Shown here in pieces: positions 50 to 35,207 of a DNA stretch of 40,921 nt (within the stretch, counting starts at the first letter, position 1; every line of letters begins with the position of its first letter). The stretch lies in UHGV virus genome UHGV-0093931, one strand, 5' to 3'. Under the pieces are notes generated by a model. That model was not told where the DNA came from. It did no database searches and saw only the letters and a program-made list of their open reading frames with translations. Both the position numbers and the translations under genes were made by a program. This DNA comes from a virus.

Positions 50-1363
50 TTAACTTACTGATTTTAATAATCCTCCCGTACTGCTCTCGTGGCTATGGGG
101 CATCAATGGGGCAAAATCTGCCAGCTTCTGATTCAGCATTGCGATCTGCTCTGCGCTGCTGTCAGCCATCCATGCACCGTAAACATTGAACACCATCTGC
201 GCGCTCGCATGCCCCATCTGACTGGCAATAAAACTCGGGTTTGCACCAGCAGATAATGACCAGCACGCATAGGTATGTCGTGACTGGTACGCCTTTCTGT
301 GTCTGATCCCCGCGCGCTTAAGTGCCGCTTCCCATGAGTCGCCTACTGAATCGACCCGGTAGATAAATCCGACCTGCTTACTGCGTCTGACCACATGCGG
401 GTTAAAGACAAATGTACACTCATGGTTCACCGAACGGCCGTACTCACGTAACTGAACTTCAATGTGATGTTTCCTGCCCAGCCTTGTCATCTCAGCCTGA
501 TTTTTCAGGATGCTGATTGCGGGCTGGATAAGATGCACCACTCGATCTGTGCTTGCCTCGGTTTTCGGTAGAGTGAACTCACCAAGTTTCGTATAATTAC
601 GCCTGACGGTAATTGTTCCCGCCTTCAGGTCGATATCTTCCCAGGCCAGGGAGACCAGTTCCCCGTGACGCATTCCTGTGTACACTGCTAATGACCACAG
701 GTTTTTCGTCTGCTGATGCCGGCATGCATCTATCAGGCGAATAAATTCATCACGAGACAGAGGATCTGGTTCTGCCCTGGCTTTTTTCAGAGGCTTAATT
801 CCCTCGAATGGGTTCACCTCTAAATAACCGTGATCTGCAGCAAACTGAAACATTCCGGCCATTGTCGTCATGTAATAGTTCACAGTAACAACGCTTCGCC
901 CTTTTGCCGGAGCTTTGTTTTTCGTCGGATTCTGGTAACCAGTTAGCAAATCTTTCCTAAGATACAGCAATTCCTCTTTGGTTACTGCTGACACCAGGCG
1001 ATTACCTCCGATCCTCGGCACCATATTCCTTGCGACAGACTCATAGCGATTGAATGCGTTCGCGCAGATTTCCATCCGTTTCAGATCCAGCCATTTTTCT
1101 TCAAGTTCTTTCACTGTAATGTCTTTTTTACTTACACCAAAAGCCTTGAGGTTAGGGGAGTCAGGAAACTGGGTTGCATAATCAAAGGTTCCTGTGCGGA
1201 TGGCAAAACATACTGATGTCCGCAGTTCCCCAGCTATCTTCCTGTTCTTAGCGGTGTCAGGGACACCGAGACTTTCCCTGACACGCTTACCTTTAAAATT
1301 AAACCAGATGCGTAATGTGCCACCGTGGTTTTCGACGCCTGTTGGATATGTGACTTTATCCAT
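50..1363 (-). CDS. int: tyrosine-type phage integrase
   Basis: 437-aa ORF at the left end of the prophage; C-terminal region has the His/Tyr signature of tyrosine recombinases (...RHTYACW..., ...VYGAWM...); GGAGG RBS about 8 nt upstream of the ATG at 1361-1363. Confidence 0.9.
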   Translation of the reverse strand: MDKVTYPTGVENHGGTLRIWFNFKGKRVRESLGVPDTAKNRKIAGELRTSVCFAIRTGTFDYATQFPDSPNLKAFGVSKKDITVKELEEKWLDLKRMEICANAFNRYESVARNMVPRIGGNRLVSAVTKEELLYLRKDLLTGYQNPTKNKAPAKGRSVVTVNYYMTTMAGMFQFAADHGYLEVNPFEGIKPLKKARAEPDPLSRDEFIRLIDACRHQQTKNLWSLAVYTGMRHGELVSLAWEDIDLKAGTITVRRNYTKLGEFTLPKTEASTDRVVHLIQPAISILKNQAEMTRLGRKHHIEVQLREYGRSVNHECTFVFNPHVVRRSKQVGFIYRVDSVGDSWEAALKRAGIRHRKAYQSRHTYACWSLSAGANPSFIASQMGHASAQMVFNVYGAWMADSSAEQIAMLNQKLADFAPLMPHSHESSTGGLLKSVS

Positions 1364-4190: not shown

Positions 4191-4726
4191 GTGGCGCATT
4201 GGCGCAGCTCCATCAGTTCGTTAAAGCGATTCATGAACAGGCCATAGGCTTGACCAGGACGGAGAGGGATAACCTGAACGAGATCAGAGCAGGGAATACC
4301 TTCGAGAATTTCCCACTTCGAACCGTCATCGATTTCCAGATCACGGCGCTCGGTAGCTAACATGGTGAGATCGGCATATTTCACGACAGCAGCTTGTTCA
4401 AGAGAGATACCGAATTTAAAGCGGATAAGACCATCAACATAAGTTTCCATGCGCTGGTAGTCAGGCAGCAATGCTTTGAGTGGTGCCGGAATGTCCTGGC
4501 AATATGCCTCCGCAGCGTCGTGCATCAACGCTTCAAAGGCGAACTCTGGCGGAACAATCTGGCTAACAAGCACAGAGTGCTGAGCCACACTGTAAAACTC
4601 TGGTAGATGCCCGGCGAATCGACAGATGTTGGAAAGAGCTGTCGCGATATCTTCAACATCGATATCGTCGATTGTGGCGGTCAGGTAGTTAAATTTTTTA
4701 CCGGATAATGTTTGAATGTAGCTCAT
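4187..4726 (-). CDS. HD-domain phosphohydrolase (YfdR-like 5'-deoxynucleotidase)
   Basis: HD motif ...LMHDAAEAY... in the translation; likely start MSYIQT at 4724-4726 with GGAG RBS (the track ORF extends to 4753). Confidence 0.7.
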   Translation of the reverse strand: MSYIQTLSGKKFNYLTATIDDIDVEDIATALSNICRFAGHLPEFYSVAQHSVLVSQIVPPEFAFEALMHDAAEAYCQDIPAPLKALLPDYQRMETYVDGLIRFKFGISLEQAAVVKYADLTMLATERRDLEIDDGSKWEILEGIPCSDLVQVIPLRPGQAYGLFMNRFNELMELRQCAT

Positions 4727-4910
4727 CGTTTTCTCCATATTGGCGCGCTGCACCGCGCAGATTTTGGTTGCACGAATCCCTCGCCGGGTGGCGATAATTA
4801 ATGGAATTACGCTTCAATAAATCCCCGCGGTGCCGGGGATTTAATGCAGAGCAATTAGGCTTTAAAGTTACCGATGAAAGTTTCCACTGATTCACCGTCG
4901 AACTTGCTGA

Positions 4911-5681
4911 TCAGCAGATCGCGGAATTCATTGGCGATCTCTTCTTCCTGGGCTTCAAGTTGGACGATGCGCAGAACAAAGCGGGTTCATCGCTGGTCAG
5001 CAGGCTGTTACGCAAGCTAAAACGTCGTTCGCCCAGACCTTCATACGGCACACATTTGAATTCAAACGCCACAGGCATTACGTCTTTGCTGCTTGCTTCA
5101 ACGCTTTGCATCAGCGATTTTTTACCAGCGAAATCACCAGTTTCATGGTCCTGCTGGGTTGCTTGCTGAATAGTGATACGACGCACAGCCTGAGCTGCCT
5201 GGGAAATCTGCATCGTATTGCCATCAGCATCAAACGCCAGCAGGTAATCGCTCCAGTCTTCCAGCCATTCGGCGATTTGCTTTTGCTTCAGACGTTGACC
5301 ATCGATCTGCAGTAACGCGCGGAAGGGCGCGGTTTTCTTCAGGGTGATCGAAGCAACGTTATCGGCGTGACCGGGATTATCCAGGTTGCCGATGTTGAAC
5401 ACTGAACGGGCGGTCATGTTGTCAGCGTCAATGAAGCAACGTGCTGGCTCACTGTCGCTGGCGTAACCTTTAGAATAACGTGCGAAATCGTCAATACTGG
5501 TTGTTGTCATTGCACCACGGAAGCGGAAACGCTCCAGAGAAAAGCGCTCAAGGCTTTCAACGCTAGTACCATCTGGCAGCAATGCGGTCGGGCAAGCCAG
5601 GCCATGAATATCATTCAGGTGGTAGCCAGAAAGGACCAGGTCTTTTACCTGCTGAAATGTACCGCTGTCTAACTGAGACAT
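4911..5681 (-). CDS. YfdQ-like (DUF2303-type) prophage protein, apparently frameshifted near the 3' end
   Basis: 256-aa ORF; a protein-like continuation (...[39 protein letters not shown]) is open in another frame down to a TAA at 4855-4857. Family call is from memory. Confidence 0.6.
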
Positions 5682-5737
5682 AGAAATTCCTTATTAACTG
5701 ATGATCGAAGTGGTATCAGTGAGTTTGTTGTTGCGGA

Positions 5738-6109
5738 TCACTGAGCCGCTTTAAGCTTTCCATCCACCGCGCCAGTGATCCCGAACAACTGACCCTGATC
5801 TTCCTGCAGGATGGTGAGCTTCCCGCCTTTGTTGACCCACATCGGGGTTTCGGTTGTGTCCTCTTCGGAGGCTTTACCACGCGGTGTTGGGGTGCTGTAG
5901 TTCAGCTTGTGCTTGATCTTGACGCGCTTCTCTTCAACGGAATTACCCATGCGCTCAAAATCAAATGTGAGGACTACTTTGCCTTTGTTGCCGTTGTTCA
6001 GAACGCCAAGCGCGGTGGTATTAAGTGCTGCCGCGATTTTGTTCATGAACACGCCGGCATCCAGTTCGCCAAGAAAATCTGGCACTACGGTCATGCGGTC
6101 ATTACTCAT
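5738..6109 (-). CDS. hypothetical prophage early protein (YfdP-like position)
   Basis: 123-aa ORF; GAGGG RBS upstream of the ATG at 6107-6109; first clear gene after the noncoding region downstream of the putative pL. Confidence 0.6.
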   Translation of the reverse strand: MSNDRMTVVPDFLGELDAGVFMNKIAAALNTTALGVLNNGNKGKVVLTFDFERMGNSVEEKRVKIKHKLNYSTPTPRGKASEEDTTETPMWVNKGGKLTILQEDQGQLFGITGAVDGKLKAAQ

Positions 6110-6270
6110 GGTTTTACCCTCGTTAAGGCGGCTGCAACCGCCGAACTTTCTCCATACACAACAGAGAAGAGCACCTGCATTGGTCGGCGGCTTGCAGGGA
6201 CCGCTTTCTTTTTGCCCGGGTGGATTGGGTTATGAGCCCGTCGCCCGGTGATGCTCTTTTCTGTTGCGTA

Positions 6271-6340
6271 AAAAGGGCGGTACCGAGGTAGAACATTATC
6301 TTCGTCCCCCTTGCATAAGGTTGAAGGCCCAGGTACCGCC
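6271..6340 (-). terminator. candidate terminator-like structure on the leftward transcript
   Basis: Plus-strand GGGCGGTACC (6276-6285) pairs with GGTACCGCC (6332-6340) around an inner CCTT-ATGC-AAGG hairpin; on the minus strand the structure is followed by a U-run (plus-strand AAAAA at 6271-6275). The loop is large for a classical intrinsic terminator. Confidence 0.3.
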
Positions 6341-7289
6341 AAGACTACACACATGGAACTACGGTTATCACAGTCCTCAGCGTGATTTGGTTGTGGTTGC
6401 TGGTGCTGAACTCCAGCTCAGTGGCGCGGTGTTTCAATATCGTAACCGCCCGTTCCATCCGCGTTCGATCAGTCCGTATGCTCGCTTAGAACGTTTCGCC
6501 TGCTTATCTTTTCTCAACCGTTTGACGGTCAGCCCCGCCATTCACCACAACGAAGAGAGCACTGCCGGTATCCGAATTGAACGGACCTTTTCGTTGCCCA
6601 TCACCGCTATCTGTATAGCGGTGGCAGGGATTGAACCTGCCGTTATGCCTTGCTCGTCAATGCTCTCATCGTTGTGTGCTGACCTTACAGCCAGCATGGT
6701 TGGAATGAAGACGCATCACGACTTTTCACCAACTGGGCGGGATCACCATGAAAGAGCCGCCCCTTTAGCCTTTCATGCTCCCCATCTTTCTAGGTAGTCA
6801 ATGCCTCCAGTTGGGCATACAACCTTCGGTTATCGCTCCGTCGTCAGCGCCACTCTCCAGGACATTTATAAGGACCGTCTCCAAGTGGTAACTCTTCCAG
6901 TCCCGGTAAGCATCCTGCGAGATGCTTACCATGACCGGCTGATCTTCCCTGAAAAAGGCTGGCGGTTACCGGACAAACGGGAAAACACCGGGCCGCCAGA
7001 ACAGGGAGTTACTTGTTATTGCTTTGGCCTGCTTTTAACCACATCAGGCGCGGTGGTAGGTATCTTCGGGCGGGGTGCTAAGGGGGTGATTAGCCCTTGC
7101 CCTTAACACTCCTGCTGGTTTTGGTATTCCTGGCTTGGGTATCGCCACCAGCTATAGGAATTTGACTACGAGTTGCGGTTAATCAGGCCGCGCCTCTGTT
7201 ACCCCTCCCGAAGACACCTGTCAGCGAATCATCCGGTTATTCATATGCCACCGGCGGCTACTTCGTGGGCGTCCTGCCTGTTCGCTGTT

Positions 7290-7381: not shown

Positions 7382-8008
7382 TTAAAGCTCGTACTGAACG
7401 CCTTTGACAACGCCGATGATCAGGCAATTACCGTTAATTGAAATGTTTGGATAGCGTGGATTTAAGGGAACTAAGAACTTTTGAGGCCCATCGATGACAA
7501 GTTTTTTTACAGTAGCCTCGTTTGTCCCATCAAGCCTGGCTACGACTATCTTTCCATGAAGTGGCTCTGCATCTGGATCTACTATGACTGTTGCCCCTTC
7601 AGGGATTGTCGGGAGGCCATTAGGGTTTGTCATCGAATCACCTTTAACCTCCAATGCAAAGGAGCTATCCCCTATGCGGAGTGATGTCTCTATCCACTTA
7701 TCTACTTCGCTGAAAACTTCTGCTGCTTTACATTCTGTAAACTGTCCAGCCTGAACCCAGGATATCACCGGAATCCTTCGCATCTTGGTTATCAGATTGC
7801 CTTCAAATTCAGTGCCATAAAGTATGTAATCAATTGATGTGTTGAAATACTTTGCAAGTTTCGCAAGTGACTCGCCTCCAGGCACATTAACGTCTTTTTC
7901 CCAATACCCAACCGCCACATCACTAACACCGCAGAACTTACCCAGTTCTTTCTGCGAGGTTTTGGTTATGCGCCTGAGAGCTTTGATGCGCTGACCGACA
8001 GTTTCCAT
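7382..8008 (-). CDS. cI: CI-type repressor (XRE-family HTH with LexA-like S24 peptidase domain)
   Basis: 208 aa; N-terminal HTH (...TSQKELGKFCGVSDVAVGYWE...) and C-terminal autocleavage-type domain; divergent from a cro-like gene. Confidence 0.9.
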   Translation of the reverse strand: METVGQRIKALRRITKTSQKELGKFCGVSDVAVGYWEKDVNVPGGESLAKLAKYFNTSIDYILYGTEFEGNLITKMRRIPVISWVQAGQFTECKAAEVFSEVDKWIETSLRIGDSSFALEVKGDSMTNPNGLPTIPEGATVIVDPDAEPLHGKIVVARLDGTNEATVKKLVIDGPQKFLVPLNPRYPNISINGNCLIIGVVKGVQYEL

Positions 8009-8348: not shown

Positions 8349-8900
8349 GTGGGTAACGAACCTATTTGGAAAGTCGAACGTCAGCCAGCCTGGCTGGTGG
8401 CGGCGATAAAAAAAACGATCACCGATCTTCCTGGTGGTTATGCCGAGGCGGCGGAATGGTTGGGCGTGACAGAGAACGCATTGTTCAACCGCCTTCGTGT
8501 TGACGGCGACCAAATCTTCCCGCTGGGCTGGGCAATGGTTTTACAACGTGCTGGTGGTTCAACTCATATTGCTGATGCCGTTGCGCGCCATTCTCAGGGC
8601 GTATTTGTACCGCTGGCAGACGTTGATGATCTGGATAACGCCGATATAAACCAGCGCCTGATGGAGTCCATTGAATGGATAGGTCGTCATTCTAATTTTG
8701 TACGTAAAGCCACGGCTGATGGGGTAATTGACGCAGATGAGCGTGCTCAGATTGAGGAAAACAGCTATCAGGTTATCGCGAAGTTCCAGGAGCACGTAAC
8801 GCTTCTTTATCGAGTTTTTTGTGTCGCTGAAAAGAGTGACGCCCGCGAGTGTGCAGCTCCGGGCGCCTTGGCGAACAACTCTTCGAGTATGGAGAAATAA
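8349..8900 (+). CDS. putative CII-like early regulator (phage 186 CII/CP76-like)
   Basis: 183-aa ORF directly after cro, GTG start with GGGGGGAG RBS; family assignment from memory only. Confidence 0.5.
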   Translation: MGNEPIWKVERQPAWLVAAIKKTITDLPGGYAEAAEWLGVTENALFNRLRVDGDQIFPLGWAMVLQRAGGSTHIADAVARHSQGVFVPLADVDDLDNADINQRLMESIEWIGRHSNFVRKATADGVIDADERAQIEENSYQVIAKFQEHVTLLYRVFCVAEKSDARECAAPGALANNSSSMEK

Positions 8901-9241: not shown

Positions 9242-10099
9242 ATGAGCACTAAATTAACCGGCTACGTATGGGATGGTTGCGCGGCGTCGGGCATGAAGTT
9301 GTCTAGTGTCGCGATCATGGCTCGCCTCGCTGATTTCAGCAGCGATGAGGGAGTGTGCTGGCCGTCCATTGAAACTATTGCTCGCCAGCTTGGCGCAGGG
9401 CCGAGCACGATCAGAACGGCAATCGCAAAGCTTGAAAAAGATGGCTGGCTCACGCGTACACAGCGCCGTAATGGTAACCGTAATGCGTCGAACGTGTACC
9501 GCCTGAATGTGGCGAAACTTCAGGCTGCCGCATTTTCTCAACTGTCAGATTCTGACACGTCAAAATCTGACGCATCAAATTTTGACGCCTCAAAAACTGA
9601 CCCGTCGAAATCTGGCAAAAACGGCGGTTTTGACCCGTCAGAATCTGGCGGGGATCCGTCAGTAAAATCAAAACAAGATCCACAAGTAACTTCAAAACCC
9701 TCTTGTCCGGTTGCGGCGCAACCAGACCCTGAAGTCGTGATTACTGATCAGGCAATTTTGGTTCTGACCCATTTGAACCAAATCAGCGGATCCCGGTATC
9801 AGAAATCAAAAACATCCCTGGAGAACATCCGTGCCCGACTGCGTGAGGGATACAGCGTTGCAGACCTGCAACTTGTTATCGACCTGAAGCATGAGCACTG
9901 GCACGAGAACGACGAGCAGTACCAGTACATGCGACCGGAAACGCTGTTTGGCCCGAAGAAATTCGAGAGCTATCTGCAAAGCGCTACCCGCTGGGAGCAG
10001 AAGGGACGGCCTAAACGTGCTGACTGGGGAGCGAAAAAGCGCGATGTGATGGCTTTTGGTCCGGTTGAAACAACGATTCCAGAGGGGTTCAGAGGATGA
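9242..10099 (+). CDS. phage replication initiator (O-like, N-terminal wHTH)
   Basis: 285 aa; N-terminal DNA-binding region; a low-complexity middle (SDSDTSKSDASNFDASKTDPSKSG) is encoded by the iteron repeats; first gene after the immunity/CII block. Confidence 0.75.
   Translation: MSTKLTGYVWDGCAASGMKLSSVAIMARLADFSSDEGVCWPSIETIARQLGAGPSTIRTAIAKLEKDGWLTRTQRRNGNRNASNVYRLNVAKLQAAAFSQLSDSDTSKSDASNFDASKTDPSKSGKNGGFDPSESGGDPSVKSKQDPQVTSKPSCPVAAQPDPEVVITDQAILVLTHLNQISGSRYQKSKTSLENIRARLREGYSVADLQLVIDLKHEHWHENDEQYQYMRPETLFGPKKFESYLQSATRWEQKGRPKRADWGAKKRDVMAFGPVETTIPEGFRG
9544..9651. repeat. iteron array (putative replication origin) inside the initiator gene
   Basis: Five tandem 15-bp units at 9544, 9559, 9574, 9589 and 9604 (gtcaGATTCTGACac, gtcaAAATCTGACgc, atcaAATTTTGACgc, ctcaAAAACTGACcc, gtcgAAATCTGGCaa) and a sixth copy at about 9637-9651; AT-richer DNA follows. 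Confidence 0.7.
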
Positions 10100-10977
10100 C
10101 GTTAAACAAATATTGCCAGGCGCTGGTGGCACTACGTAGCCAACCAGCCCACGAATTGAAAGAAGTTGGCGATCAGTGGCGGACACCGGACCTGCTTTTT
10201 TGGGGCATTAATGCGATGTTCGGCCCGCTGACGCTGGATCTCTTTGCTGATGACGATAACGCTAAGTGCCCTGTGTGGTACACCGCCGAAGATAACGCGC
10301 TGGTACAAGATTGGGCGGAAATGCTGGAATCAATCGGCGGGGCCGCATTCGGTAATCCACCATATAGCCGTTCGCAGTACCACGAGAAACAGGCGATAAC
10401 CGGCATGACCCACATCATGGATCGCACAATGGAAATGCGTGAAAAGAGTGGGCGTTACGTGTTCCTCATTAAAGCGGCGACAAGTGAAACATGGTGGCCG
10501 GAAGATGCCGATCACATCATGTTTATCCGCGGTCGTATTGGCTTCGATCTCCCTGTGTGGTTTGTTCCTGCTGATGATAAGCAGAAGCCCACTGGTGCTT
10601 TCTTTGCTGGTGCTATTGCAATCTTTGATAAGTCATGGCGCGGAGAGCGTTTCAGCTACATCAGCCGTACCGAACTGGAAGAAAAAGGGCGGGCGTTTAT
10701 GGCTTTGGCTCAATTCGCCGTTGGTAAAGAGCAAACAATTGCAATGCAGGCAGCTAAGGAACCAGCAGCAACACCGGAAACTGAGTCACGAATTTGGCCT
10801 CTCGAGGTTGGTCTGGTGTTTAACCAGGTGGAAGGCGTTGATGTATTGAGCGAGGCCCAGCAGAACAAACTGAAAGCCAACATCAATCAACTCTGGCTGG
10901 AACGAACGGCCACCAGCGAAATTATCACAATTGCGCGTGGTCTTGTTGGCAGCATGCAGGGGGTAACCCATGCGTGA
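10096..10977 (+). CDS. phage N6-adenine DNA methyltransferase (Dam-like)
   Basis: 293 aa; ...WRTPDLLF... and catalytic ...GNPPYS... motif typical of N6-A methyltransferases. Confidence 0.8.
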   Translation: MTLNKYCQALVALRSQPAHELKEVGDQWRTPDLLFWGINAMFGPLTLDLFADDDNAKCPVWYTAEDNALVQDWAEMLESIGGAAFGNPPYSRSQYHEKQAITGMTHIMDRTMEMREKSGRYVFLIKAATSETWWPEDADHIMFIRGRIGFDLPVWFVPADDKQKPTGAFFAGAIAIFDKSWRGERFSYISRTELEEKGRAFMALAQFAVGKEQTIAMQAAKEPAATPETESRIWPLEVGLVFNQVEGVDVLSEAQQNKLKANINQLWLERTATSEIITIARGLVGSMQGVTHA

Positions 10978-12904
10978 GATTATCGTTGATAACTTTGCTG
11001 GTGGCGGTGGTGCATCAACGGGTATTGAACTGGCGATCGGACGCAGCGTGGATATTGCGATCAACCACGACGAAAACGCCATTGCGATGCACAAGACGAA
11101 CCACCCTGACACACTGCATTACTGTGAATCCGTATTTGACGTGGATCCGGTAGCCGCCACCGGCGGCAATCCTGTTGGCCTGGCATGGTTTAGCCCGGAC
11201 TGCCGACACTTCTCAAAGGCCAAAGGCGCAAAGCCTGTGAAAAAAGAGATACGCGGTCTGGCCTGGATCGTTCTGCGTTGGGCACTGGCGAAGCGACCGC
11301 GCGTGATGATGCTGGAGAACGTGGAAGAGTTTAAAACGTGGGGACCGCTGCTGGCCGATGAAATGCGTCCAGACCCTGCCCGCACTGGCGAAACATTCAA
11401 TGCTTTTGTCGGCATGCTTTCCACTGGCATTCCTGCCGATCACCCGGCACTGGCGGAGGTCTGCGAATTTCTTGCTATTGATCCTGGCAGCACGCAGGCC
11501 AAACAGCTGGTGGAAGGGCTTGGATATGATGTTGATTATCGCGAACTGCGCGCGTGTGATTACGGCGCGCCGACGATCCGCAAACGCTTCTTCATGGTTA
11601 TGCGCTGCGATGGTTGCCCTATTCAGTGGCCTGTTGTAACCCATGGGGATCCCAAGTCACTGGAGGTGCAGAGCGGCAGGCTGATGCCATGGCGTACCGC
11701 TGCGGAATGTATCGACTGGAATGTTCCGGCTCTGTCCATCTTCGACCGCAAAAAACCGCTGGCAGAGAACACTCTGAAGCGGATCGCACGCGGCATACAG
11801 CGCTTTGTTATCGAAAGTGCGTCGCCGTTTATCGTGAAGTGCAACCACACGAGCTCAAAAAATGCGTATGACGCTTTTCGCGGACAGTCACTGAATGAGC
11901 CATTACAGACCATTACTAAAAAACTCGGCTACGCGTTAGCCGTTCCACACCTTACAAAATTCCGCACTGGCGCAACCGGGCAGCCCGTTACCGAACCTGT
12001 TCCGACGGTAACCGCTGGCACGTCAAAACGCCCGGGCGGGAACGGGCATGCTCTCGGGATTGTTGAGGCTGCATTGACACCATTCCTGGCGGGTAATGGT
12101 GGTAGTGAATACCAGGCTAAACCGCGCCCGCTGAATAAACCTGCTCATACCATTCTGAAGCAATCCCGAGCCTGTCTTGTTGCGCCAGTGATAGCCCGCC
12201 AGTTTGGGGCCAGCGTCGGCCACCGTGCAGACGAACCGAGCGCAACCATCACCGCTGGTGGTGGCGGTAAATCTCAACTGGTAACGCCTACGCTGATTCA
12301 GATGGGTTATGGCGAACGACCTGGACAAGAACCGCGTGTGCTGCGACTGGATAACCCGCTGGGGACCGTTACTGCAGGCGGAAATAAATTTGCGACGGTG
12401 AGCGCATTCCTGGCGAAACACTACGGCGGTAACTATACGGGGCCGGGTGTCAGTATGGATGAACCCGCGCATTCAGTGACCACTGTCGACCATCATGCGG
12501 TAGTTGCCTCTCATCTGGTGAAACTGCGTGGAACATGCCGCGACGGGCAACGCCTTGATGTGCCAATGCCAACAATCACTGCTGGTGGCCAACACGTGGG
12601 TGAGGTACGCACATTTCTCGAGACGTATTGCGGGGAAAGTGACGATGAATGGCTGGTAACGATCGATGGGGTTAAATACCAGATCGTTGATATCGGAATG
12701 CGCATGTTGCAGCCGCATGAACTCTACAAAGCGCAGGGCTTCCCGGATGGTTACGTTATTGATCAGGACTACCGTGGAAATCGCTATGCAAAAGATAAGC
12801 AGGTAGCCCGCTGCGGTAATGCGGTACCACCACCATTCGCCCGGGCGCTGGTTGAGGCAAATCTTCCGGAACTGTGTGCAGTGCAACAGCAGGAGGTGGC
12901 ATGA
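10970..12904 (+). CDS. DNA (cytosine-5)-methyltransferase with large variable region
   Basis: 644 aa; motif I FAGGGG, ENV motif (MLENVEEF) and C-terminal ...RCGNAVPP... (motif X); the catalytic Cys is in an atypical ...SPDCRHFS... context; long insert between conserved blocks. Confidence 0.8.
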   Translation: MREIIVDNFAGGGGASTGIELAIGRSVDIAINHDENAIAMHKTNHPDTLHYCESVFDVDPVAATGGNPVGLAWFSPDCRHFSKAKGAKPVKKEIRGLAWIVLRWALAKRPRVMMLENVEEFKTWGPLLADEMRPDPARTGETFNAFVGMLSTGIPADHPALAEVCEFLAIDPGSTQAKQLVEGLGYDVDYRELRACDYGAPTIRKRFFMVMRCDGCPIQWPVVTHGDPKSLEVQSGRLMPWRTAAECIDWNVPALSIFDRKKPLAENTLKRIARGIQRFVIESASPFIVKCNHTSSKNAYDAFRGQSLNEPLQTITKKLGYALAVPHLTKFRTGATGQPVTEPVPTVTAGTSKRPGGNGHALGIVEAALTPFLAGNGGSEYQAKPRPLNKPAHTILKQSRACLVAPVIARQFGASVGHRADEPSATITAGGGGKSQLVTPTLIQMGYGERPGQEPRVLRLDNPLGTVTAGGNKFATVSAFLAKHYGGNYTGPGVSMDEPAHSVTTVDHHAVVASHLVKLRGTCRDGQRLDVPMPTITAGGQHVGEVRTFLETYCGESDDEWLVTIDGVKYQIVDIGMRMLQPHELYKAQGFPDGYVIDQDYRGNRYAKDKQVARCGNAVPPPFARALVEANLPELCAVQQQEVA

Positions 12905-14979: not shown

Positions 14980-15000
14980 GTGTATGGAGCGCAAAGAAGC

Positions 15001-15690
15001 ATGAATCAACAAGACCTGAATTTTGTCAGAATAGAATTGCGCCGCGCGCTACCTGACCTCTCTGGGGGAACAAAAGGGCAGCTTGAGGCTTTCAGTGAAC
15101 ACCCACCAGCAGATAAAAATGCCACCCCGCGCCGTGGAATTCATCTCGTCGAACTCGAAGGAGATAAGGGGCCACGCTTTGTTAACTCGCTTTCCGCGCC
15201 ACTGTATGTGCTGGAAACACGCAGCCGCCGTAGGCCAATGCCGCCGATAAAAGATGCGGAATTTGAGTCAGCGCCGTGGCGTAGGGCAGTGTCCGCGCTT
15301 AGTGGATACCAGCAGGCCTGGTTGCGGTACTGTTACGGTTTTGACCTTAGCTATAAGCACCAGGTGATGATGTGTGAATACGTCTGGAAAACTTATCAGA
15401 AATGCCTGGGTGATAATTCCCTTCAGGAGCGCGTAGTAAAGAAACTGATTGGCCTGGTATGGCTGGCAGGGCAGGAAATTGCCGCAACCAGAAATAATGA
15501 AACCTATAAAGACTATGCTGGTGCAGCGTTGGCCCGCATGGTTAGCGTTGACCGTTCGACATGGTTGCGTGTCTATTCAGGGCACTGGGCTGGGTTAAAG
15601 GCCGCTTTTACCCAGCTTGATGAATCTGCGCTGGCCATGGCTCTTGAATACTATGAGGAAGAAGACGCCCTCAAAGTGGCAGAAATGTGA
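15001..15690 (+). CDS. putative late-gene antiterminator (Q-like)
   Basis: Last gene of the early-right operon, directly upstream of a promoter/terminator module and the lysis cassette; family call by position and memory. Confidence 0.5.
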   Translation: MNQQDLNFVRIELRRALPDLSGGTKGQLEAFSEHPPADKNATPRRGIHLVELEGDKGPRFVNSLSAPLYVLETRSRRRPMPPIKDAEFESAPWRRAVSALSGYQQAWLRYCYGFDLSYKHQVMMCEYVWKTYQKCLGDNSLQERVVKKLIGLVWLAGQEIAATRNNETYKDYAGAALARMVSVDRSTWLRVYSGHWAGLKAAFTQLDESALAMALEYYEEEDALKVAEM

Positions 15691-33452: not shown

Positions 33453-34163
33453 ATGCGTCAGAAAACCATCGATGCGATTATGGCGCATGCTGCAGCAGAA
33501 TATCCTCGTGAGTGTTGCGGCGTGGTGGCGCAGAAAAGCCGTGTTGAACGTTATTTTCCGTGCCGGAATCTTGCCGCGGCGCCGGAGGACAATTTTGTCC
33601 TTTGCCCCGAGGACTATGCAACTGCTGAGGACTGGGGAACGGTGATCGCCATCGCTCACAGTCACCCTGATGCCACGACGCAACCGAGCGAACTGGATAA
33701 AGCGCAATGCGATGCGACGCTTTTACCCTGGCATATCGTGAGCTGGCCGGAGGGGGATTTACGTACCATCCAGCCGCGTGGAGAACTGCCGCTGCTGGAG
33801 CGTCCGTTTGTGCTTGGTCACTTCGACTGCTGGGGGCTGGTAATGAGCTATTTCCGGCAAACTCATGGTATCGAGCTCCATGATTACCGGGTGGATTATC
33901 CCTGGTGGGAAAACGACTATCCGGACAACTTCTATCAGGATTGCTGGTATGAGTGCGGATTCCGTGAATTCGACGGGCCACCGAAACCAGGGGATATGGT
34001 GATCATGCAGGTCCAGGCTGATAAGTGGAACCACGCGGGAATCCTGCTGGAGGGTAATATGTTGCTACACCACCTGTACGGTCATCTGAGTCAGCGCGTG
34101 CCGTATGGCGGTTACTGGCAAGAAAGAACGATGAAGATTCTACGTTATAAATCTCTGTGCTAA
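33453..34163 (+). CDS. tail assembly protein K-like (JAB/MPN plus NlpC/P60 domains)
   Basis: 236 aa; ...AHSHP... JAMM-like motif and C-terminal Cys/His peptidase-like region. Confidence 0.8.
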   Translation: MRQKTIDAIMAHAAAEYPRECCGVVAQKSRVERYFPCRNLAAAPEDNFVLCPEDYATAEDWGTVIAIAHSHPDATTQPSELDKAQCDATLLPWHIVSWPEGDLRTIQPRGELPLLERPFVLGHFDCWGLVMSYFRQTHGIELHDYRVDYPWWENDYPDNFYQDCWYECGFREFDGPPKPGDMVIMQVQADKWNHAGILLEGNMLLHHLYGHLSQRVPYGGYWQERTMKILRYKSLC

Positions 34164-34191
34164 CCTTTGCTCAAAACAAAGGAGCGAAACC

Positions 34192-34542
34192 ATGAAATTT
34201 GTATTAAGTCTATTGTTATTATCGACATTATTTAATTCATACGCAGGAACTGTAGACGATTATCTTGAACGTCATTCTGAAATAAAATCAAATTCTGTTG
34301 CTGAAACTTATGTGAGCCATTACGCCTTTATGATTGCGATGATGGAAGCACAACAGAAGCATAATAGATCTGATAATGAGTTTATCACTGGATTACTTTC
34401 AAATAATGGTGATGTATATGCAAGATTAGCAGTTAGAAAACTTGCCAATGATTGTTTAACGCAAAGGGATATTGGTCAGTCCGGAGAGTTAAATAATAAA
34501 GAATGTAATATTGTGATTAGAGCAAATAAATCACAACAATAG
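34192..34542 (+). CDS. secreted small protein (moron in the tail module)
   Basis: 116 aa; AT-rich codon usage unlike its neighbours; N-terminal signal peptide MKFVLSLLLLSTLFNSYAGT; AGGAG RBS. Confidence 0.6.
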   Translation: MKFVLSLLLLSTLFNSYAGTVDDYLERHSEIKSNSVAETYVSHYAFMIAMMEAQQKHNRSDNEFITGLLSNNGDVYARLAVRKLANDCLTQRDIGQSGELNNKECNIVIRANKSQQ

Positions 34543-34546
34543 CCAA

Positions 34547-35155
34547 TTGAAAGTCGAGGGTACGATGCAAGAGGTAATGACGCGAATTGAACTAGGTGGA
34601 GAGCCGGGTAAGATCTTTGGAAAGATACACCATCGCCTTATCAATAAAGTATCAGAAGCTGGAACGGCCCTCGCTAAAACTATCCCCGGCTTTGAAAGTT
34701 ATATGATTAGCAGTAAAAGCCGTGGGCTAACATTTGCCATCTTCAAAGGTAAAAAGAATATTGGAGTTGACGACCTTGGCTTTCCCGTTACAGGTGAAGT
34801 AATCAGAATTGTGCCTGTAATCATTGGGGGCAAAAAAGCCGGGGTGCTGCAAACAGTTTTAGGTGCCGTGTTGGTTGCCGCTGGTGCCGTGCTTAGCTTC
34901 ACCCCATGGGCTGCAGCCTCACCATTTTTATATAAATTTGGTGCTGCAATGATGCTAGGCGGAGTTGTACAGATGCTTTCTCCACAGCCATCTGGCATAG
35001 CCAGCAAACAAAGTGCAGATAACCGTGCATCCTACGCATTCGGTGGAGTTACGAACACCGCAGCTCAGGGTTACCCGGTCCCGCTTCTTTATGGTCGTCG
35101 GCGAATCGGCGGAGCGATTATTTCTGCCGGAATTTATGTCGAAGATCAGCAGTAG
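34547..35155 (+). CDS. tail assembly protein I-like
   Basis: 202-aa ORF (start may be an internal Met); hydrophobic C-terminal segment; lambda I position between K and J. Confidence 0.7.
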   Translation: MKVEGTMQEVMTRIELGGEPGKIFGKIHHRLINKVSEAGTALAKTIPGFESYMISSKSRGLTFAIFKGKKNIGVDDLGFPVTGEVIRIVPVIIGGKKAGVLQTVLGAVLVAAGAVLSFTPWAAASPFLYKFGAAMMLGGVVQMLSPQPSGIASKQSADNRASYAFGGVTNTAAQGYPVPLLYGRRRIGGAIISAGIYVEDQQ

Positions 35156-35173
35156 ATAACACACCTTTTTCAG

Positions 35174-35197
35174 GCCACCTTCGGGTGGCTTTTTTTA
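35174..35197 (+). terminator. intrinsic terminator-like hairpin between I and J
   Basis: GCCACC-ttcg-GGTGGC followed by TTTTTTTAT. Confidence 0.6.
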
Positions 35198-35207
35198 TGG
35201 GCGCAAT

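What the first reader, a model, noticed from the sequence alone, without database searches (positions are those of the whole stretch)
10096..12904. Tandem Dam-like N6-adenine and large C5-cytosine DNA methyltransferases
Two orphan methyltransferases with no adjacent restriction endonuclease lie back to back in the early-right operon. The C5 enzyme is unusually long (644 aa), with a large insert between conserved motifs and the catalytic Cys in an atypical SPDC context, which may indicate multiple or unusual target specificity. Together they look like an anti-restriction or epigenetic module.
Basis: partly seen in the sequence, partly recalled or inferred. Interest (0 to 1): 0.5.

Follow-up and report, generated by a model that had tools for sequence, protein, structure and literature searches.

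The report
Prophage methylase with seven recognition units
A Salmonella-type prophage carries an ordinary adenine methylase next to a cytosine methylase whose long "insert" is seven tandem copies of the DNA-recognition element, so one enzyme probably protects phage DNA at several different sequences, and a small uncharacterised three-helix module always accompanies it.

Summary
Two same-strand, overlapping genes lie in the CI-repressed early-right operon of a lambdoid prophage, with no nuclease partner. They encode a 293-aa phage Dam-type N6-adenine methyltransferase and a 644-aa C5-cytosine methyltransferase.

(1) The "large insert" is an array of seven tandem 32-48-aa units. Each carries the "TL motif" that normally occurs once per C5 enzyme and marks each target-recognizing domain (TRD) in the multispecific Bacillus-phage enzymes (SPR, rho11s, H2). 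Near-identical relatives differ by whole units (5-9). Within the clade the units are as conserved as the catalytic core. One unit is significantly similar to a Bacillus-phage unit. The best reading is a multispecific anti-restriction methylase. This is inferred, not shown.

(2) "SPDC" is not a peculiarity of this protein. It is the signature motif IV of a large, almost entirely phage-borne subfamily.

(3) The last ~57 residues of the "Dam" protein are a separate three-helix module with no Pfam family. It precedes the C5 gene in all 66 Enterobacterales orthologue loci. There it is free-standing or fused to any of three unrelated amino-methyltransferase families. Its function is unknown; it is probably an accessory or adaptor of the C5 enzyme.

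No publication on this family was found. I file it as a new variant of a known kind.

The parts
10096..10710 (+). Catalytic domain (aa 1-205) of a phage Dam-type N6-adenine DNA methyltransferase; NPPY at aa 87-90 (nt 10354-10365). Its ATG overlaps the replication gene's stop (ATGA at 10096-10099).
   Evidence: PF05869 E 5e-44 over aa 19-199. TIGR01712 equivalog, 201.5 bits against a cut-off of 97. 84% identical to ST64B Sb44 and about 72% to Stx2-phage Dam. Junction sequence.
10711..10791 (+). Ala/Glu/Thr/Pro-rich linker (aa 206-232) between the Dam catalytic domain and the tail module.
   Evidence: No family match covers it: the Pfam hit ends at aa 199 and the tail homology starts at aa 233. 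The composition is read directly from the sequence.
10792..10977 (+). Tail module (Dam aa 233-293, including the stop codon). It is a ~57-aa three-helix bundle of the PHROG 16025 type with no Pfam family, and its stop overlaps the C5 start. Genetically it is coupled to the C5 gene.
   Evidence: phrog_16025 matches aa 230-286. Homologues sit directly upstream of the C5 gene in 66 of 66 Enterobacterales loci, always overlapping its start. The module is free-standing (85-90 aa) or fused to PF05869, to MT-A70 or to a PHROG 954 methyltransferase. The family has 1,095 clusters, and the top 120 are all free-standing "hypothetical protein" entries. In the reverse check, 8 of 9 places are followed by a PF00145 gene. 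AF2 gives pLDDT 81 and three helices. dN/dS is 0.19-0.24.
10970..12904 (+). 644-aa C5-cytosine DNA methyltransferase gene of the "SPDC" subfamily. SD-like AGGGGG lies 7-8 nt upstream of the ATG; the gene overlaps Dam by 8 nt and overlaps the likely RusA ATG (12901) in an ATGA.
   Evidence: The exact protein is found on 235 contigs of Salmonella enterica and other Enterobacteriaceae.
10994..11011 (+). Motif I, FAGGGG (aa 9-14), the AdoMet-binding loop.
   Evidence: F9, G11, G12, G13 and G14 are invariant in 130 diverse homologues.
11192..11215 (+). Motif IV, SPDCRHFS (aa 75-82), with catalytic Cys78. Asp replaces the canonical Pro of the Pro-Cys dipeptide.
   Evidence: Alignment to 3g7u. S75, P76, D77 and C78 are invariant. 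The motif is family-wide. In distant relatives an intein is inserted immediately before this Cys.
11315..11323 (+). Motif VI, ENV (aa 116-118).
   Evidence: invariant.
11570..11587 (+). Motif VIII, PTIRKR (aa 201-206).
   Evidence: P201, T202, R204 and R206 are invariant.
11588..11890 (+). Conserved family-specific "bridge" region (aa 207-307; ...PWRTAAECIDW...SIFDRKKPLAENTLKRIARGIQRF...) between motif VIII and the array.
   Evidence: It is conserved like the core (0.76 pairwise identity). It is modelled at high confidence up to about aa 250 and with falling confidence after that.
11891..11986 (+). Unit 1 (aa 308-339), TL motif PLQTIT.
   Evidence: Lost together with unit 2 in the 590-aa variant P0102.
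11987..12130 (+). Unit 2 (aa 340-387), TL motif PVPTVT, with the long loop AGTSKRPGGNGHALG.
   Evidence: Pairwise identity is 0.79 among the 51 orthologues that hold it. The unit type is confined to the Enterobacterales clade.
12131..12226 (+). Unit 3 (aa 388-419), TL-like PAHTIL.
   Evidence: It scores weakest in the leave-one-out test: 5.0 bits, against a 95th percentile of 1.8 and a maximum of 6.8 in shuffles. Absent in the 570-aa variant P0077, which is 99% identical elsewhere.
12227..12346 (+). Unit 4 (aa 420-459), TL motif PSATIT, with loop AGGGGKSQ.
   Evidence: Pairwise identity 0.78.
12347..12454 (+). Unit 5 (aa 460-495), TL motif PLGTVT.
   Evidence: Exactly this unit (39 aa) is missing, in register, in the 605-, 626- and 629-aa variants.
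12455..12553 (+). Unit 6 (aa 496-528), TL-like PAHSVT. Similar to the last TL unit of M.SPRI, M.Rho11sI and M.H2I.
   Evidence: z 8.5-8.9, with 0 of 300 shuffles reaching the score. It is the best BLASTP segment between the whole proteins (E 0.009). The unit is duplicated in the 690-703-aa relatives.
12554..12673 (+). Unit 7 (aa 529-568), TL motif PMPTIT. Thr535 lies 43 aa before motif IX, the canonical position of the single TL motif.
   Evidence: The published TL-motif position is 10-50 aa before motif IX (PMC2413257).
12701..12754 (+). Motif IX, RMLQPHELYKAQGFPDGY (aa 578-595).
   Evidence: invariant residues.
12815..12835 (+). Motif X, GNAVPPP (aa 616-622).
   Evidence: G616, N617, V619 and P621 are invariant.

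Best explanation
This is a three-part DNA-methylation module in the delayed-early (PR) transcript of a lambdoid prophage. It is silent in the lysogen and expressed on induction or infection, and it marks replicating phage DNA before packaging.

Part 1 is a routine phage Dam-type N6-adenine methyltransferase domain. Its target is probably GATC, as in characterised relatives; this rests on memory and was not tested.

Part 3 is a C5-cytosine methyltransferase with an intact catalytic core. Its variable region holds seven tandem 32-48-aa units. Each unit has a TL motif, a variable Gly-rich loop and a hydrophobic strand. This is the element that forms each target-recognizing domain (TRD) in the multispecific Bacillus-phage enzymes.

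The most likely mechanism is the Bacillus one. A single catalytic core is served alternately by several autonomous TRDs, so the enzyme methylates several different short sequences. Progeny DNA is then protected against several Type II restriction systems at once. Unequal recombination between units adds, removes or hybridises units and so changes the repertoire.

Part 2 is the three-helix tail fused to Dam. I infer that it is a protein-protein accessory or adaptor of the C5 enzyme. In this phage it also tethers the adenine methyltransferase to the C5 enzyme.

Shown here: gene structure, family membership, intact motifs, the repeat array, unit-wise indels, purifying selection, and the linkage between the tail and the C5 gene.

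Inferred: catalytic activity, number and identity of targets, the anti-restriction role, and any function of the tail.
For: - **The repeat is real.** Seven P-x-x-[TS]-[ILV]-[TL] motifs are found against 0.125 expected; the maximum in 20,000 shuffles was 3. Each unit is recognised by an HMM built from the other six.
- **The motif is the published TRD TL motif.** That motif is normally single and lies 10-50 aa before motif IX (PMC2413257). Unit 7 sits 43 aa before motif IX.
- **Real sequences of M.SPRI, M.Rho11sI and M.H2I show the same element 30-47 aa apart**. M.SPRI has three TRDs and three TL units.
- **Unit 6 resembles a Bacillus unit.** z is 8.5-8.9 against the last Bacillus TL unit, and this is the best BLASTP segment between the two whole proteins.
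- **Units behave as autonomous pieces.** Relatives that are 84-99% identical over the aligned residues differ by in-register loss or gain of whole units, giving 5-9 units and lengths of 570-703 aa. Across the subfamily the count runs from about 1 to 10, and unit types appear in shuffled orders.
- **Units are under selection.** dN/dS is 0.08-0.10 for the array against 0.08 for the core. Per-unit identity is 0.59-0.79 against 0.76-0.81 for the core across 78 orthologues.
- **The core is intact and folds as a C5 methyltransferase**.
- **The family is phage-borne and orphan** in Salmonella/Enterobacteriaceae, Burkholderia and Paenibacillus.
- **Regulatory position:** downstream of a CI-type repressor and upstream of Q, with coupled junctions.
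- **Precedent:** a 2025 review describes exactly this strategy for Bacillus temperate phages (PMC12707154).
- **Tail module:** linkage in 66 of 66 loci, always overlapping the C5 start; fusions to three unrelated methyltransferase families; a folded three-helix prediction; dN/dS of 0.19-0.24.
Against: - No biochemical or methylome data exist for any member that I could find.
- AF2 gave pLDDT below 50 for the whole array (aa 288-560), so there is no structural support that each unit folds as a TRD or can reach the active site.
- Apart from unit 6, similarity to the Bacillus TRDs is weak. The unit HMM scored 7.2 and 4.9 bits against a shuffle maximum of 3.8, and some hits were out of register.
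- A profile of the units found nothing in the PDB.
- The Bacillus unit that resembles unit 6 is present in all three Bacillus enzymes despite their different specificities. It may be a structural or pseudo-domain rather than an active TRD.
- Inactive pseudo-TRDs are known in that family (from memory: Lange et al. 1991), so seven units need not mean seven specificities.
- None of the seven units matches the strict published consensus P(STCA)PT(ILV)(TASV). They match a relaxed form.
- The prediction that unit types would be conserved above the protein-wide level in distant relatives failed.
- The catalytic cores of this subfamily and of the Bacillus enzymes are only distantly related. The analogy is architectural, not one of close kinship.
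- For the tail, the fold search was uninformative (best E 0.64). It is never fused to the C5 protein itself (0 of 387). Distant family members do without it.
Confidence: 0.55

Rival explanations
1. The array is one composite DNA-binding domain. The seven units cooperate, as in a repeat protein, to give a single specificity, which could be long, degenerate or very relaxed. They are not alternative TRDs.
For: The units form a regular tandem repeat with a shared framework, as in solenoid-type binding domains. AF2 could not place any unit individually. Unit types differ between clades, much as an ordinary variable region does. Non-specific phage-borne methyltransferases exist, such as M.EcoGII, cited in PMC12707154.
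Against: In a C5 methyltransferase the recognition element must sit beside the flipped cytosine, and only one TL hairpin can occupy that site in the solved enzymes (established knowledge of M.HhaI and M.HaeIII). Internal units are deleted or added in proteins that are otherwise 96-99% identical and that persist in many genomes. A cooperative domain should not tolerate that. The only characterised enzymes with several TL units are multispecific.
Confidence: 0.17
2. The enzyme has only one or two specificities. Only the unit nearest motif IX, and perhaps one more, is an active TRD. The others are pseudo-domains or spacers retained for folding or as a reservoir for recombination.
For: Pseudo-TRDs are documented in the Bacillus-phage enzymes (from memory; not verifiable with the papers held). 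The Bacillus unit resembling unit 6 occurs in enzymes with different specificities. Only unit 7 is at the canonical distance from motif IX. Unit 3 (PAHTIL) and unit 6 (PAHSVT) depart from the T-[ILV]-[TASV] core.
Against: Every unit is under purifying selection comparable to the core within the clade. In M.SPRI, TL units 30-100 aa away from motif IX are active TRDs.
Confidence: 0.15
3. The module is not mainly anti-restriction. It would serve the phage's own life cycle (replication timing, packaging, gene regulation) or alter host gene expression.
For: P1 needs Dam methylation at pac, and many orphan phage methyltransferases are proposed regulators (PMC12707154). The genes lie between the replication genes and the nin-region recombination genes. 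In a Dam+ enterobacterial host a second GATC methylase is redundant for protection.
Against: A regulatory role does not explain rapid turnover in unit number and type among close relatives, which is the signature of an arms race over specificity. CI repression argues against a role in the lysogen. The same family occurs in unrelated phages of Burkholderia and Paenibacillus with different life-cycle genes.
Confidence: 0.1
4. Because Pro-Cys is replaced by Asp-Cys, the enzyme is inactive, or it catalyses another reaction (for example transfer of a different group, or action on another substrate).
For: Motif IV departs from the canonical Pro-Cys. A C5 carboxymethyltransferase (8yf3) is among the fold matches.
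Against: S-P-D-C is invariant in hundreds of diverse homologues, and all the other catalytic motifs are intact. dN/dS is 0.08. Inteins target exactly this Cys in relatives, which is typical of essential active-site residues. No Cx-SAM synthase or other modification gene was found among the operon neighbours scanned. 8yf3 ranks 22nd, below the ordinary methyltransferases.
Confidence: 0.04

Closest known systems
Multispecific C5 DNA methyltransferases of Bacillus temperate phages (M.SPRI, M.Phi3TI, M.Rho11sI, M.H2I; also M.(phi)BssHII)
   Same: Both are phage-borne orphan C5 enzymes. Both have a single catalytic core and a variable region between motifs VIII and IX made of several consecutive units, each with a TL motif, at 30-50 aa spacing. 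One window unit is significantly similar to a Bacillus unit. The presumed purpose is the same: protection against many restriction systems with one polypeptide (PMC12707154).
   Different: The subfamilies differ: the cores are barely alignable by BLASTP, motif IV is SPDC rather than (S/F)PCQ, and motif VIII is PTIRKR rather than PQNRER. The window enzyme has seven TL units against three or four. It has an extra conserved ~100-aa bridge before the array. It is found in Gram-negative lambdoid prophages. It is accompanied by a dedicated three-helix module. No specificity has been measured.
Phage N6-adenine methyltransferases of the PF05869 / TIGR01712 family (ST64B Sb44, Stx2-phage Dam, phage T1 Dam)
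   Same: The window's Dam domain scores above both curated cut-offs. It is 84% identical to ST64B Sb44 and about 72% to Stx2-phage Dam. It has NPPY. It sits at the same place in the lambdoid early-right operon.
   Different: It carries the C-terminal three-helix tail. Many family members lack the tail: the Stx2-phage hits cover only aa 4-203. GATC specificity of the characterised members is from memory and was not tested here.
Prophage CP-933R putative DNA modification methyltransferase (PDB 3g7u)
   Same: It is the best sequence and fold match among solved structures. It is prophage-borne and shares the APTIR(K/T)R form of motif VIII.
   Different: It is 376 aa long, has the canonical PPCQ motif IV and has no expanded array. 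It was aligned only over the core (217 columns, 22% identity).
Bacteriophage P1 Dmt (adenine and cytosine methyltransferase domains in one protein)
   Same: It combines a Dam-type adenine methyltransferase with a C5-type domain in one phage-encoded unit. The Dam activity is tied to the phage life cycle (PMC12707154).
   Different: In P1 the two domains form one polypeptide (from memory). Here they are separate, translationally coupled genes with a tail module between them. No comparison with the P1 sequence was run.

Membership tests
C5-cytosine DNA methyltransferase (PF00145) | Profile score above the curated threshold | tested here: met
   73.4 bits against a gathering score of 22. TIGR00675 dcm scores only 54.8 against 100.65, below its cut-off, so the protein belongs to the superfamily but not to the dcm-like model.
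C5-cytosine DNA methyltransferase (PF00145) | Motif I FxGxG, motif VI ENV, motif VIII (Q/T)xRxR, motif IX and motif X GN(A/S)V, in canonical order | tested here: met
   FAGGGG 9-14, ENV 116-118, PTIRKR 201-206, RMLQPHE..GFPDGY 578-595 and GNAVPPP 616-622. All are invariant in 130 homologues.
C5-cytosine DNA methyltransferase (PF00145) | Catalytic Cys within a Pro-Cys dipeptide (motif IV) | tested here: inconclusive
   The Cys is present and aligned to the catalytic Cys of 3g7u, but the preceding residue is Asp, with the Pro one position earlier (S-P-D-C). This variant is invariant across the subfamily. It is a family trait, not a lesion, but its catalytic competence has not been demonstrated.
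C5-cytosine DNA methyltransferase (PF00145) | Fold of the catalytic domain | tested here: met
   AF2 gives pLDDT above 90 for aa 1-250 and 570-640. Foldseek E-values run from 5e-10 to 8e-7 against 3g7u, DNMT1, MET1, M.HaeIII and M.HhaI.
C5-cytosine DNA methyltransferase (PF00145) | AdoMet-dependent formation of 5-methylcytosine in DNA | not testable with these tools
   Needs expression followed by LC-MS, bisulfite or EM-seq.
Multispecific (multi-TRD) C5 methyltransferases of the Bacillus-phage type | Several consecutive TRD-sized units (about 30-50 aa), each with its own TL motif, between motifs VIII and IX | tested here: met
   Seven units of 32-48 aa. The same element and spacing occur in the fetched M.SPRI, M.Rho11sI and M.H2I sequences. 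The match is to a relaxed form of the published consensus.
Multispecific (multi-TRD) C5 methyltransferases of the Bacillus-phage type | Each TRD independently confers one target specificity; deleting it removes only that specificity | not testable with these tools
   The only indirect evidence is natural in-register unit deletions and insertions in near-identical proteins.
Multispecific (multi-TRD) C5 methyltransferases of the Bacillus-phage type | Sequence kinship of the enzyme core with M.SPRI and its relatives | tested here: not met
   BLASTP finds no significant core alignment (motif VIII segment E 0.07, motif IV-VI segment E 0.34). The best segment is unit 6 against the last SPR unit (E 0.009). 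The window enzyme works like the Bacillus enzymes by architecture but is not a member of their clade.
Multispecific (multi-TRD) C5 methyltransferases of the Bacillus-phage type | Encoded by a temperate phage without a cognate endonuclease | tested here: met
   for the window. for relatives.
Phage N-6-adenine methyltransferase (TIGR01712 / PF05869) | Equivalog and Pfam scores above their cut-offs, and a (D/N)PPY catalytic motif | tested here: met
   201.5 bits against 97.05 and 150.4 against 28.1. NPPY at aa 87-90, read from the sequence.
Phage N-6-adenine methyltransferase (TIGR01712 / PF05869) | GATC-specific adenine methylation | not testable with these tools
   Known only from characterised relatives, and cited from memory.
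PHROG 16025 small protein / tail module | Profile match and position immediately upstream of, and overlapping, an SPDC-type C5 methyltransferase gene | tested here: met
   phrog_16025 E 9e-10 on Dam aa 230-286. The stop overlaps the C5 start by 8 nt. The same arrangement is found in 66 of 66 Enterobacterales loci.

The most novel reading that the evidence does not exclude
The three-helix tail is an obligate accessory subunit of a hyper-multispecific C5 methyltransferase. It docks onto the enzyme, for instance by organising or selecting among the seven or more alternative TRDs. When fused to an adenine methyltransferase (Dam, MT-A70 or PHROG 954 type) it assembles a single "methylation machine". 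That machine would write five or more different 5mC motifs plus m6A on phage DNA. This would be a broad-spectrum anti-restriction device, widespread in Salmonella, E. coli, Klebsiella and Citrobacter prophages and overlooked until now because SMRT methylomes miss 5mC and the genes are silent in lysogens.
Probability: 0.2. Interest if true: 0.75.

Novelty: new variant of a known kind. Interest (0 to 1): 0.58.

Why it matters
If the array works as inferred, enterobacterial prophages carry a one-protein defence against many restriction systems. Its repertoire would be reshuffled by gain and loss of units.

That bears on phage host range, on phage-therapy design, and on horizontal transfer in Salmonella, E. 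coli, Klebsiella and Citrobacter.

Multi-TRD C5 enzymes have been a Bacillus-phage curiosity since the 1980s, and no structure explains how one core uses several TRDs. This family is large: 2,567 clusters (50% identity) at E <= 1e-30. It contains natural variants of 1-10 units, which gives a ready-made deletion series for that question.

The family could also supply new 5mC specificities for biotechnology.

The tail module is an uncharacterised protein family (1,095 clusters at 90% identity). Its strict genetic partner makes its function directly testable.

Tried and rejected
- **AF2 of the full enzyme.** With a 130-sequence diverse alignment, the array came out at pLDDT below 50, so nothing can be said about unit packing. 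I did not interpret the few predicted strands.
- **Profile of the nine units against PDB sequences.** No hit at E <= 10.
- **Unit HMM against the Bacillus enzymes.** The hits fall only in TRD regions, but the scores are weak and partly out of register. I treat this as weak support only.
- **Cross-clade conservation of unit types.** I predicted that window unit types would be conserved above the protein-wide level in distant relatives. They are not: the median best identity is 0.26-0.48 against a core identity of 0.63. The idea of universal cassettes is rejected; the units behave as a clade-specific variable region.
- **Unit 4 against a rho11s/H2 unit.** z is about 4. I discount it because 28 comparisons were made and the matched segment is the second strand of the unit, not its TL motif.
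- **Assigning a target sequence to unit 6.** Not possible: the primary papers (PMC450048, PMC1171429) are not held, and E. coli Dcm (CCWGG) showed no significant similarity to any unit.
- **Fold search of the tail.** Only generic three-helix bundles, with a best E of 0.64. A helix-turn-helix or controller-protein reading is not supported.
- **DNA-level repeats inside the gene.** None of note, so the duplications are old.
- **dN/dS.** dS is near saturation (1.3-1.7), so the ratios are rough. They are backed by per-region amino-acid identity.
- **Long relatives (931-1,113 aa).** I first suspected Dam-C5 fusions. They are intein-containing proteins.
- **Literature.** Six full-text searches (a seventh call failed on a too-short search term and returned nothing) found nothing on this enterobacterial family.

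Full report
**1.

The window is a complete lambdoid prophage:
- integrase, 50-1363 (-)
- CI-type repressor with HTH and S24 peptidase domains, 7382-8008 (-)
- CII-like activator, 8349-8900
- O/DnaD-like replication protein, 9242-10099
- the two genes of the finding
- RusA
- Ant/KilAC
- DUF968
- antiterminator Q, 14980-15690
- lysis, terminase, head and tail genes

No sequenced phage is close; the best match is 79% identity over 30% of the first 25 kb.

The ORFs lie at 10096..10977 (293 aa) and 10970..12904 (644 aa), exactly as reported. The replication/Dam, Dam/C5 and C5/RusA junctions are ATGA-type or 8-nt overlaps. No promoter-like site lies between them, and the few terminator-like matches inside these genes are weak consensus hits. 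All of this fits a single translationally coupled PR transcript.

**2. The Dam-like protein is ordinary in its first 200 residues**

It scores above the curated thresholds of PF05869 (150 bits against 28) and of the equivalog TIGR01712 (201.5 against 97). It has NPPY at aa 87-90. It is 84% identical to ST64B Sb44 and about 72% identical to Stx2-phage Dam. No solved structure matches by sequence.

**3. The C5 enzyme has an intact core, and SPDC is a family trait**

All canonical motifs are present. The confidently modelled core (pLDDT above 90) matches 3g7u, DNMT1/MET1, M.HaeIII and M.HhaI.

Against 3g7u, GGPPCQGFS aligns with FSPDCRHFS. The Pro of the Pro-Cys dipeptide is therefore replaced by Asp. 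This is not a peculiarity of the window:
- An exhaustive search found 2,567 cluster representatives at E <= 1e-30.
- About 135 of the best 150 carry SPDC[KTR]H.
- S75, P76, D77 and C78 are invariant in 130 diverse sequences from Proteobacteria, Firmicutes and Verrucomicrobia.

In seven long relatives a Hint/LAGLIDADG intein is inserted so that its terminal HN directly precedes this Cys. That is typical of essential active-site residues.

**4. The "large insert" is a tandem array of recognition-type units**

Motif VIII to motif IX spans 372 aa, against about 122 in Dcm and about 216 in M.SPRI. After a conserved ~100-aa bridge, residues 308-568 consist of seven units of 32-48 aa. The shared pattern is [LV]-[DN]-E-P-x-x-T-[IV]-T-A-G, then a variable loop, a hydrophobic strand and a Gly-rich linker.

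The core motif occurs seven times against 0.125 expected; no more than three were seen in 20,000 shuffles. Each unit is found by an HMM built from the other six. Six of the seven beat every one of 1,000 shuffles; unit 3 scores 5.0 bits against a 95th percentile of 1.8 and a maximum of 6.8. There is no DNA-level repeat, so the duplications are old.

The motif is a relaxed form of the published TL motif of C5-methyltransferase TRDs, P(STCA)PT(ILV)(TASV). That motif is normally present once, 10-50 aa before motif IX (PMC2413257). Unit 7 lies 43 aa before motif IX.

**5. Comparison with real multispecific enzymes**

I fetched the GenBank records of the SPR, rho11s and H2 methyltransferases. Their variable regions contain three or four TL units 30-47 aa apart: SPTITT, SHTLSA and AFTVNT in SPR, and ATTLTS, SPTLTT, SPTLTT and AFTVNT in rho11s. 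M.SPRI is described as having three TRDs.

Window unit 6 (DEPAHSVTTVDHHAVVASHLVKLR) is significantly similar to the last Bacillus unit (DEPAFTVNTIDRHGVAIGEYPKYR). The z-score is 8.5-8.9, and 0 of 300 shuffles reach the observed score. This is the best BLASTP segment between the two whole proteins (E 0.009). The cores themselves barely align.

The window enzyme therefore shares the architecture, and at least one unit type, with the Bacillus enzymes. It belongs to a different subfamily.

**6. The units behave as autonomous, selected pieces**

Among the 120 closest homologues (78-97% identity over the full query), length falls into classes from 570 to 703 aa and tracks a count of 5-9 motifs. The alignment shows in-register loss or gain of whole units:
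- Unit 5 is missing in the 605-, 626- and 629-aa forms.
- Units 3 and 5 are missing in a 570-aa form that is 99% identical elsewhere.
- Units 1-2 are missing in a 590-aa form.
- Extra units, one of them a duplicate of unit 6, are present in the 679-703-aa forms.

Across the subfamily the count runs from about 1 to 10. Unit types recur in different orders: the window is A-D-E-C-B-A-B, and relatives include ADECAB, ADECBAAB, ADBACAB, AABACBF and ABF. Short members have one to three units, with the last at the canonical distance from motif IX.

Within the clade the array is under purifying selection like the core. dN/dS is 0.08-0.10 against 0.08, with dS near saturation. Per-unit identity is 0.59-0.79 against 0.76-0.81 for the core.

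Between clades the unit types are not conserved. That is what a variable region does, but it rejects the idea of universally shared cassettes.

**7. What could not be shown**

AF2 gave no confident structure for the array (pLDDT below 50 for aa 288-560). A unit profile found nothing in the PDB. Similarity of the other units to the Bacillus TRDs is weak.

The Bacillus unit that resembles unit 6 is shared by enzymes with different specificities. It may therefore be a pseudo-domain or a structural element. No target sequence can be assigned to any unit.

**8. An unexpected third component**

I fetched 80 orthologue loci from distinct species. A hit to the "Dam" protein lies directly upstream of the C5 gene in about 65 of them (65-67 depending on the E-value cut-off). 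In 36 of these the hit covers only Dam residues ~233-289.

That segment has the motif VWPxEV...L...HINRMWLE...P...I...A...L. It occurs in several forms:
- as a free-standing 85-90-aa ORF
- as the C-terminus of MT-A70 proteins (L016, L060)
- as the C-terminus of a third class-I DNA methyltransferase of PHROG 954 type (L019, L026, L038, L043, L044, L057)
- as here, as the C-terminus of a PF05869 Dam

It corresponds to PHROG 16025 and has no Pfam family.

With an HMM, all 66 Enterobacterales loci have the module, always overlapping the C5 start. The 11 loci without it are distant lineages: Paenibacillus, Sporomusa, Pseudomonas, Rheinheimera and Oscillospiraceae.

The module family has 1,095 clusters at E <= 0.001, and the top 120 are all free-standing "hypothetical proteins". 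In the reverse check, 8 of 9 genomic places of two free-standing members are followed, with a 4-nt overlap, by a 624-680-aa PF00145 gene.

The module is never fused to the C5 protein itself (0 of 387). It is predicted as a three-helix bundle (pLDDT 81) with no informative structural neighbour. It is under protein-level purifying selection (dN/dS 0.19-0.24).

The conserved core of the system is therefore "tail + multi-unit C5 methyltransferase", and the adenine methyltransferase is an exchangeable add-on. I infer an accessory or adaptor role for the tail. This is the weakest step of the argument.

**9. Biological role**

The family is phage-borne and has no nuclease partner in the window or in Salmonella/Enterobacteriaceae, Burkholderia and Paenibacillus relatives. 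The genes lie downstream of a CI-type repressor and upstream of Q. Expression should therefore accompany induction or infection, not lysogeny.

[quoted passage not shown] It also notes that such phage enzymes are expressed on induction (PMC12707154).

Six full-text searches found no study of the enterobacterial family. All sources name the exact proteins generically. The C5 protein is on 235 contigs and the Dam-tail protein on 65.

**10. Verdict**

The finding is best filed as a new variant of a known kind. It is a multi-TRD C5 methyltransferase of a different subfamily, in Gram-negative lambdoid prophages. It has more units than any characterised enzyme, and it comes with a previously undescribed, strictly linked three-helix module.

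My confidence that the C5 enzyme is active is high. My confidence that it is truly multispecific is moderate (about 0.55). My confidence in the adaptor role of the tail is low to moderate.

Noticed in passing
Not in the window; relatives P0128, P0177, P0203, P0214, P0221, P0197, P0242 (931-1,113 aa): Hint + LAGLIDADG inteins of about 350-440 aa are inserted in motif IV of distant family members. The intein's terminal HN is followed directly by the catalytic Cys (VHN|C[KTR]HFS), so the active-site Cys doubles as the +1 extein nucleophile.
   Followed up: partly
Phage records NC_004313.1 (ST64B), NC_031940.1, PP925827.1, PP925821.1 and others: Dam-only or Dam-tail genes are annotated "phosphoadenosine phosphosulfate reductase" in several phage records. 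This is apparently because PHROG 33262 is a family of PAPS-reductase/Dam fusion proteins, and the window protein matches only its C-terminal positions 284-490 of 495. It looks like an annotation-transfer artefact.
   Followed up: partly
L089 (CP167050.1) 4258-6588: A free-standing tail gene is followed by about 2.3 kb with no called gene, where its relatives have the C5 methyltransferase. This may be a C5 pseudogene or a gene-calling gap.
   Followed up: no
window 34000-35200: A low-GC patch (0.42 against about 0.52-0.55 in the flanks) lies inside the tail-gene block. It holds two ORFs, 34192-34542 and 34547-35155, with no significant Pfam match (only a weak DUF308 repeat hit). It looks like a moron or cargo insertion.
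   Followed up: partly
Alignment A1, columns 131-154 and 609-625 (window C5 near aa 130 and aa 548): There are two further indel hot spots in close relatives, outside the unit array. One is a 21-24-aa insertion after motif VI (P0047, P0046, P0013). The other is a 17-aa helical insertion (TLAVEDYDEERAQQVLE) between unit 7 and motif IX (P0058, P0070, P0089, P0116).
   Followed up: no
window 12590-12700 (C5 aa ~541-577): Most family members end the array with an extra unit, EPLHTVTTKDRFGLVTV (type F), just before motif IX. The window's subgroup lacks its TL motif and keeps only the trailing LVTIDGVKYQIVDIG, apparently after a partial deletion (consensus).
   Followed up: partly
window 12874-12904: The RusA ORF is listed from GTG 12874. 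The ATG at 12901 forms an ATGA overlap with the C5 stop and fits the Pfam RusA alignment better (the domain starts at aa 15 of the long form). ATG 12901 is the more likely start.
   Followed up: partly
L006 (Paenibacillus dendritiformis) 4534-5085; L087/L088 2082-2927: Relatives without a fused Dam often still have some adenine methyltransferase a short distance upstream of the C5 gene: MT-A70 in Paenibacillus and PF02086 Dam in Citrobacter-type prophages. Pairing of m6A and m5C writers seems to recur across families.
   Followed up: no
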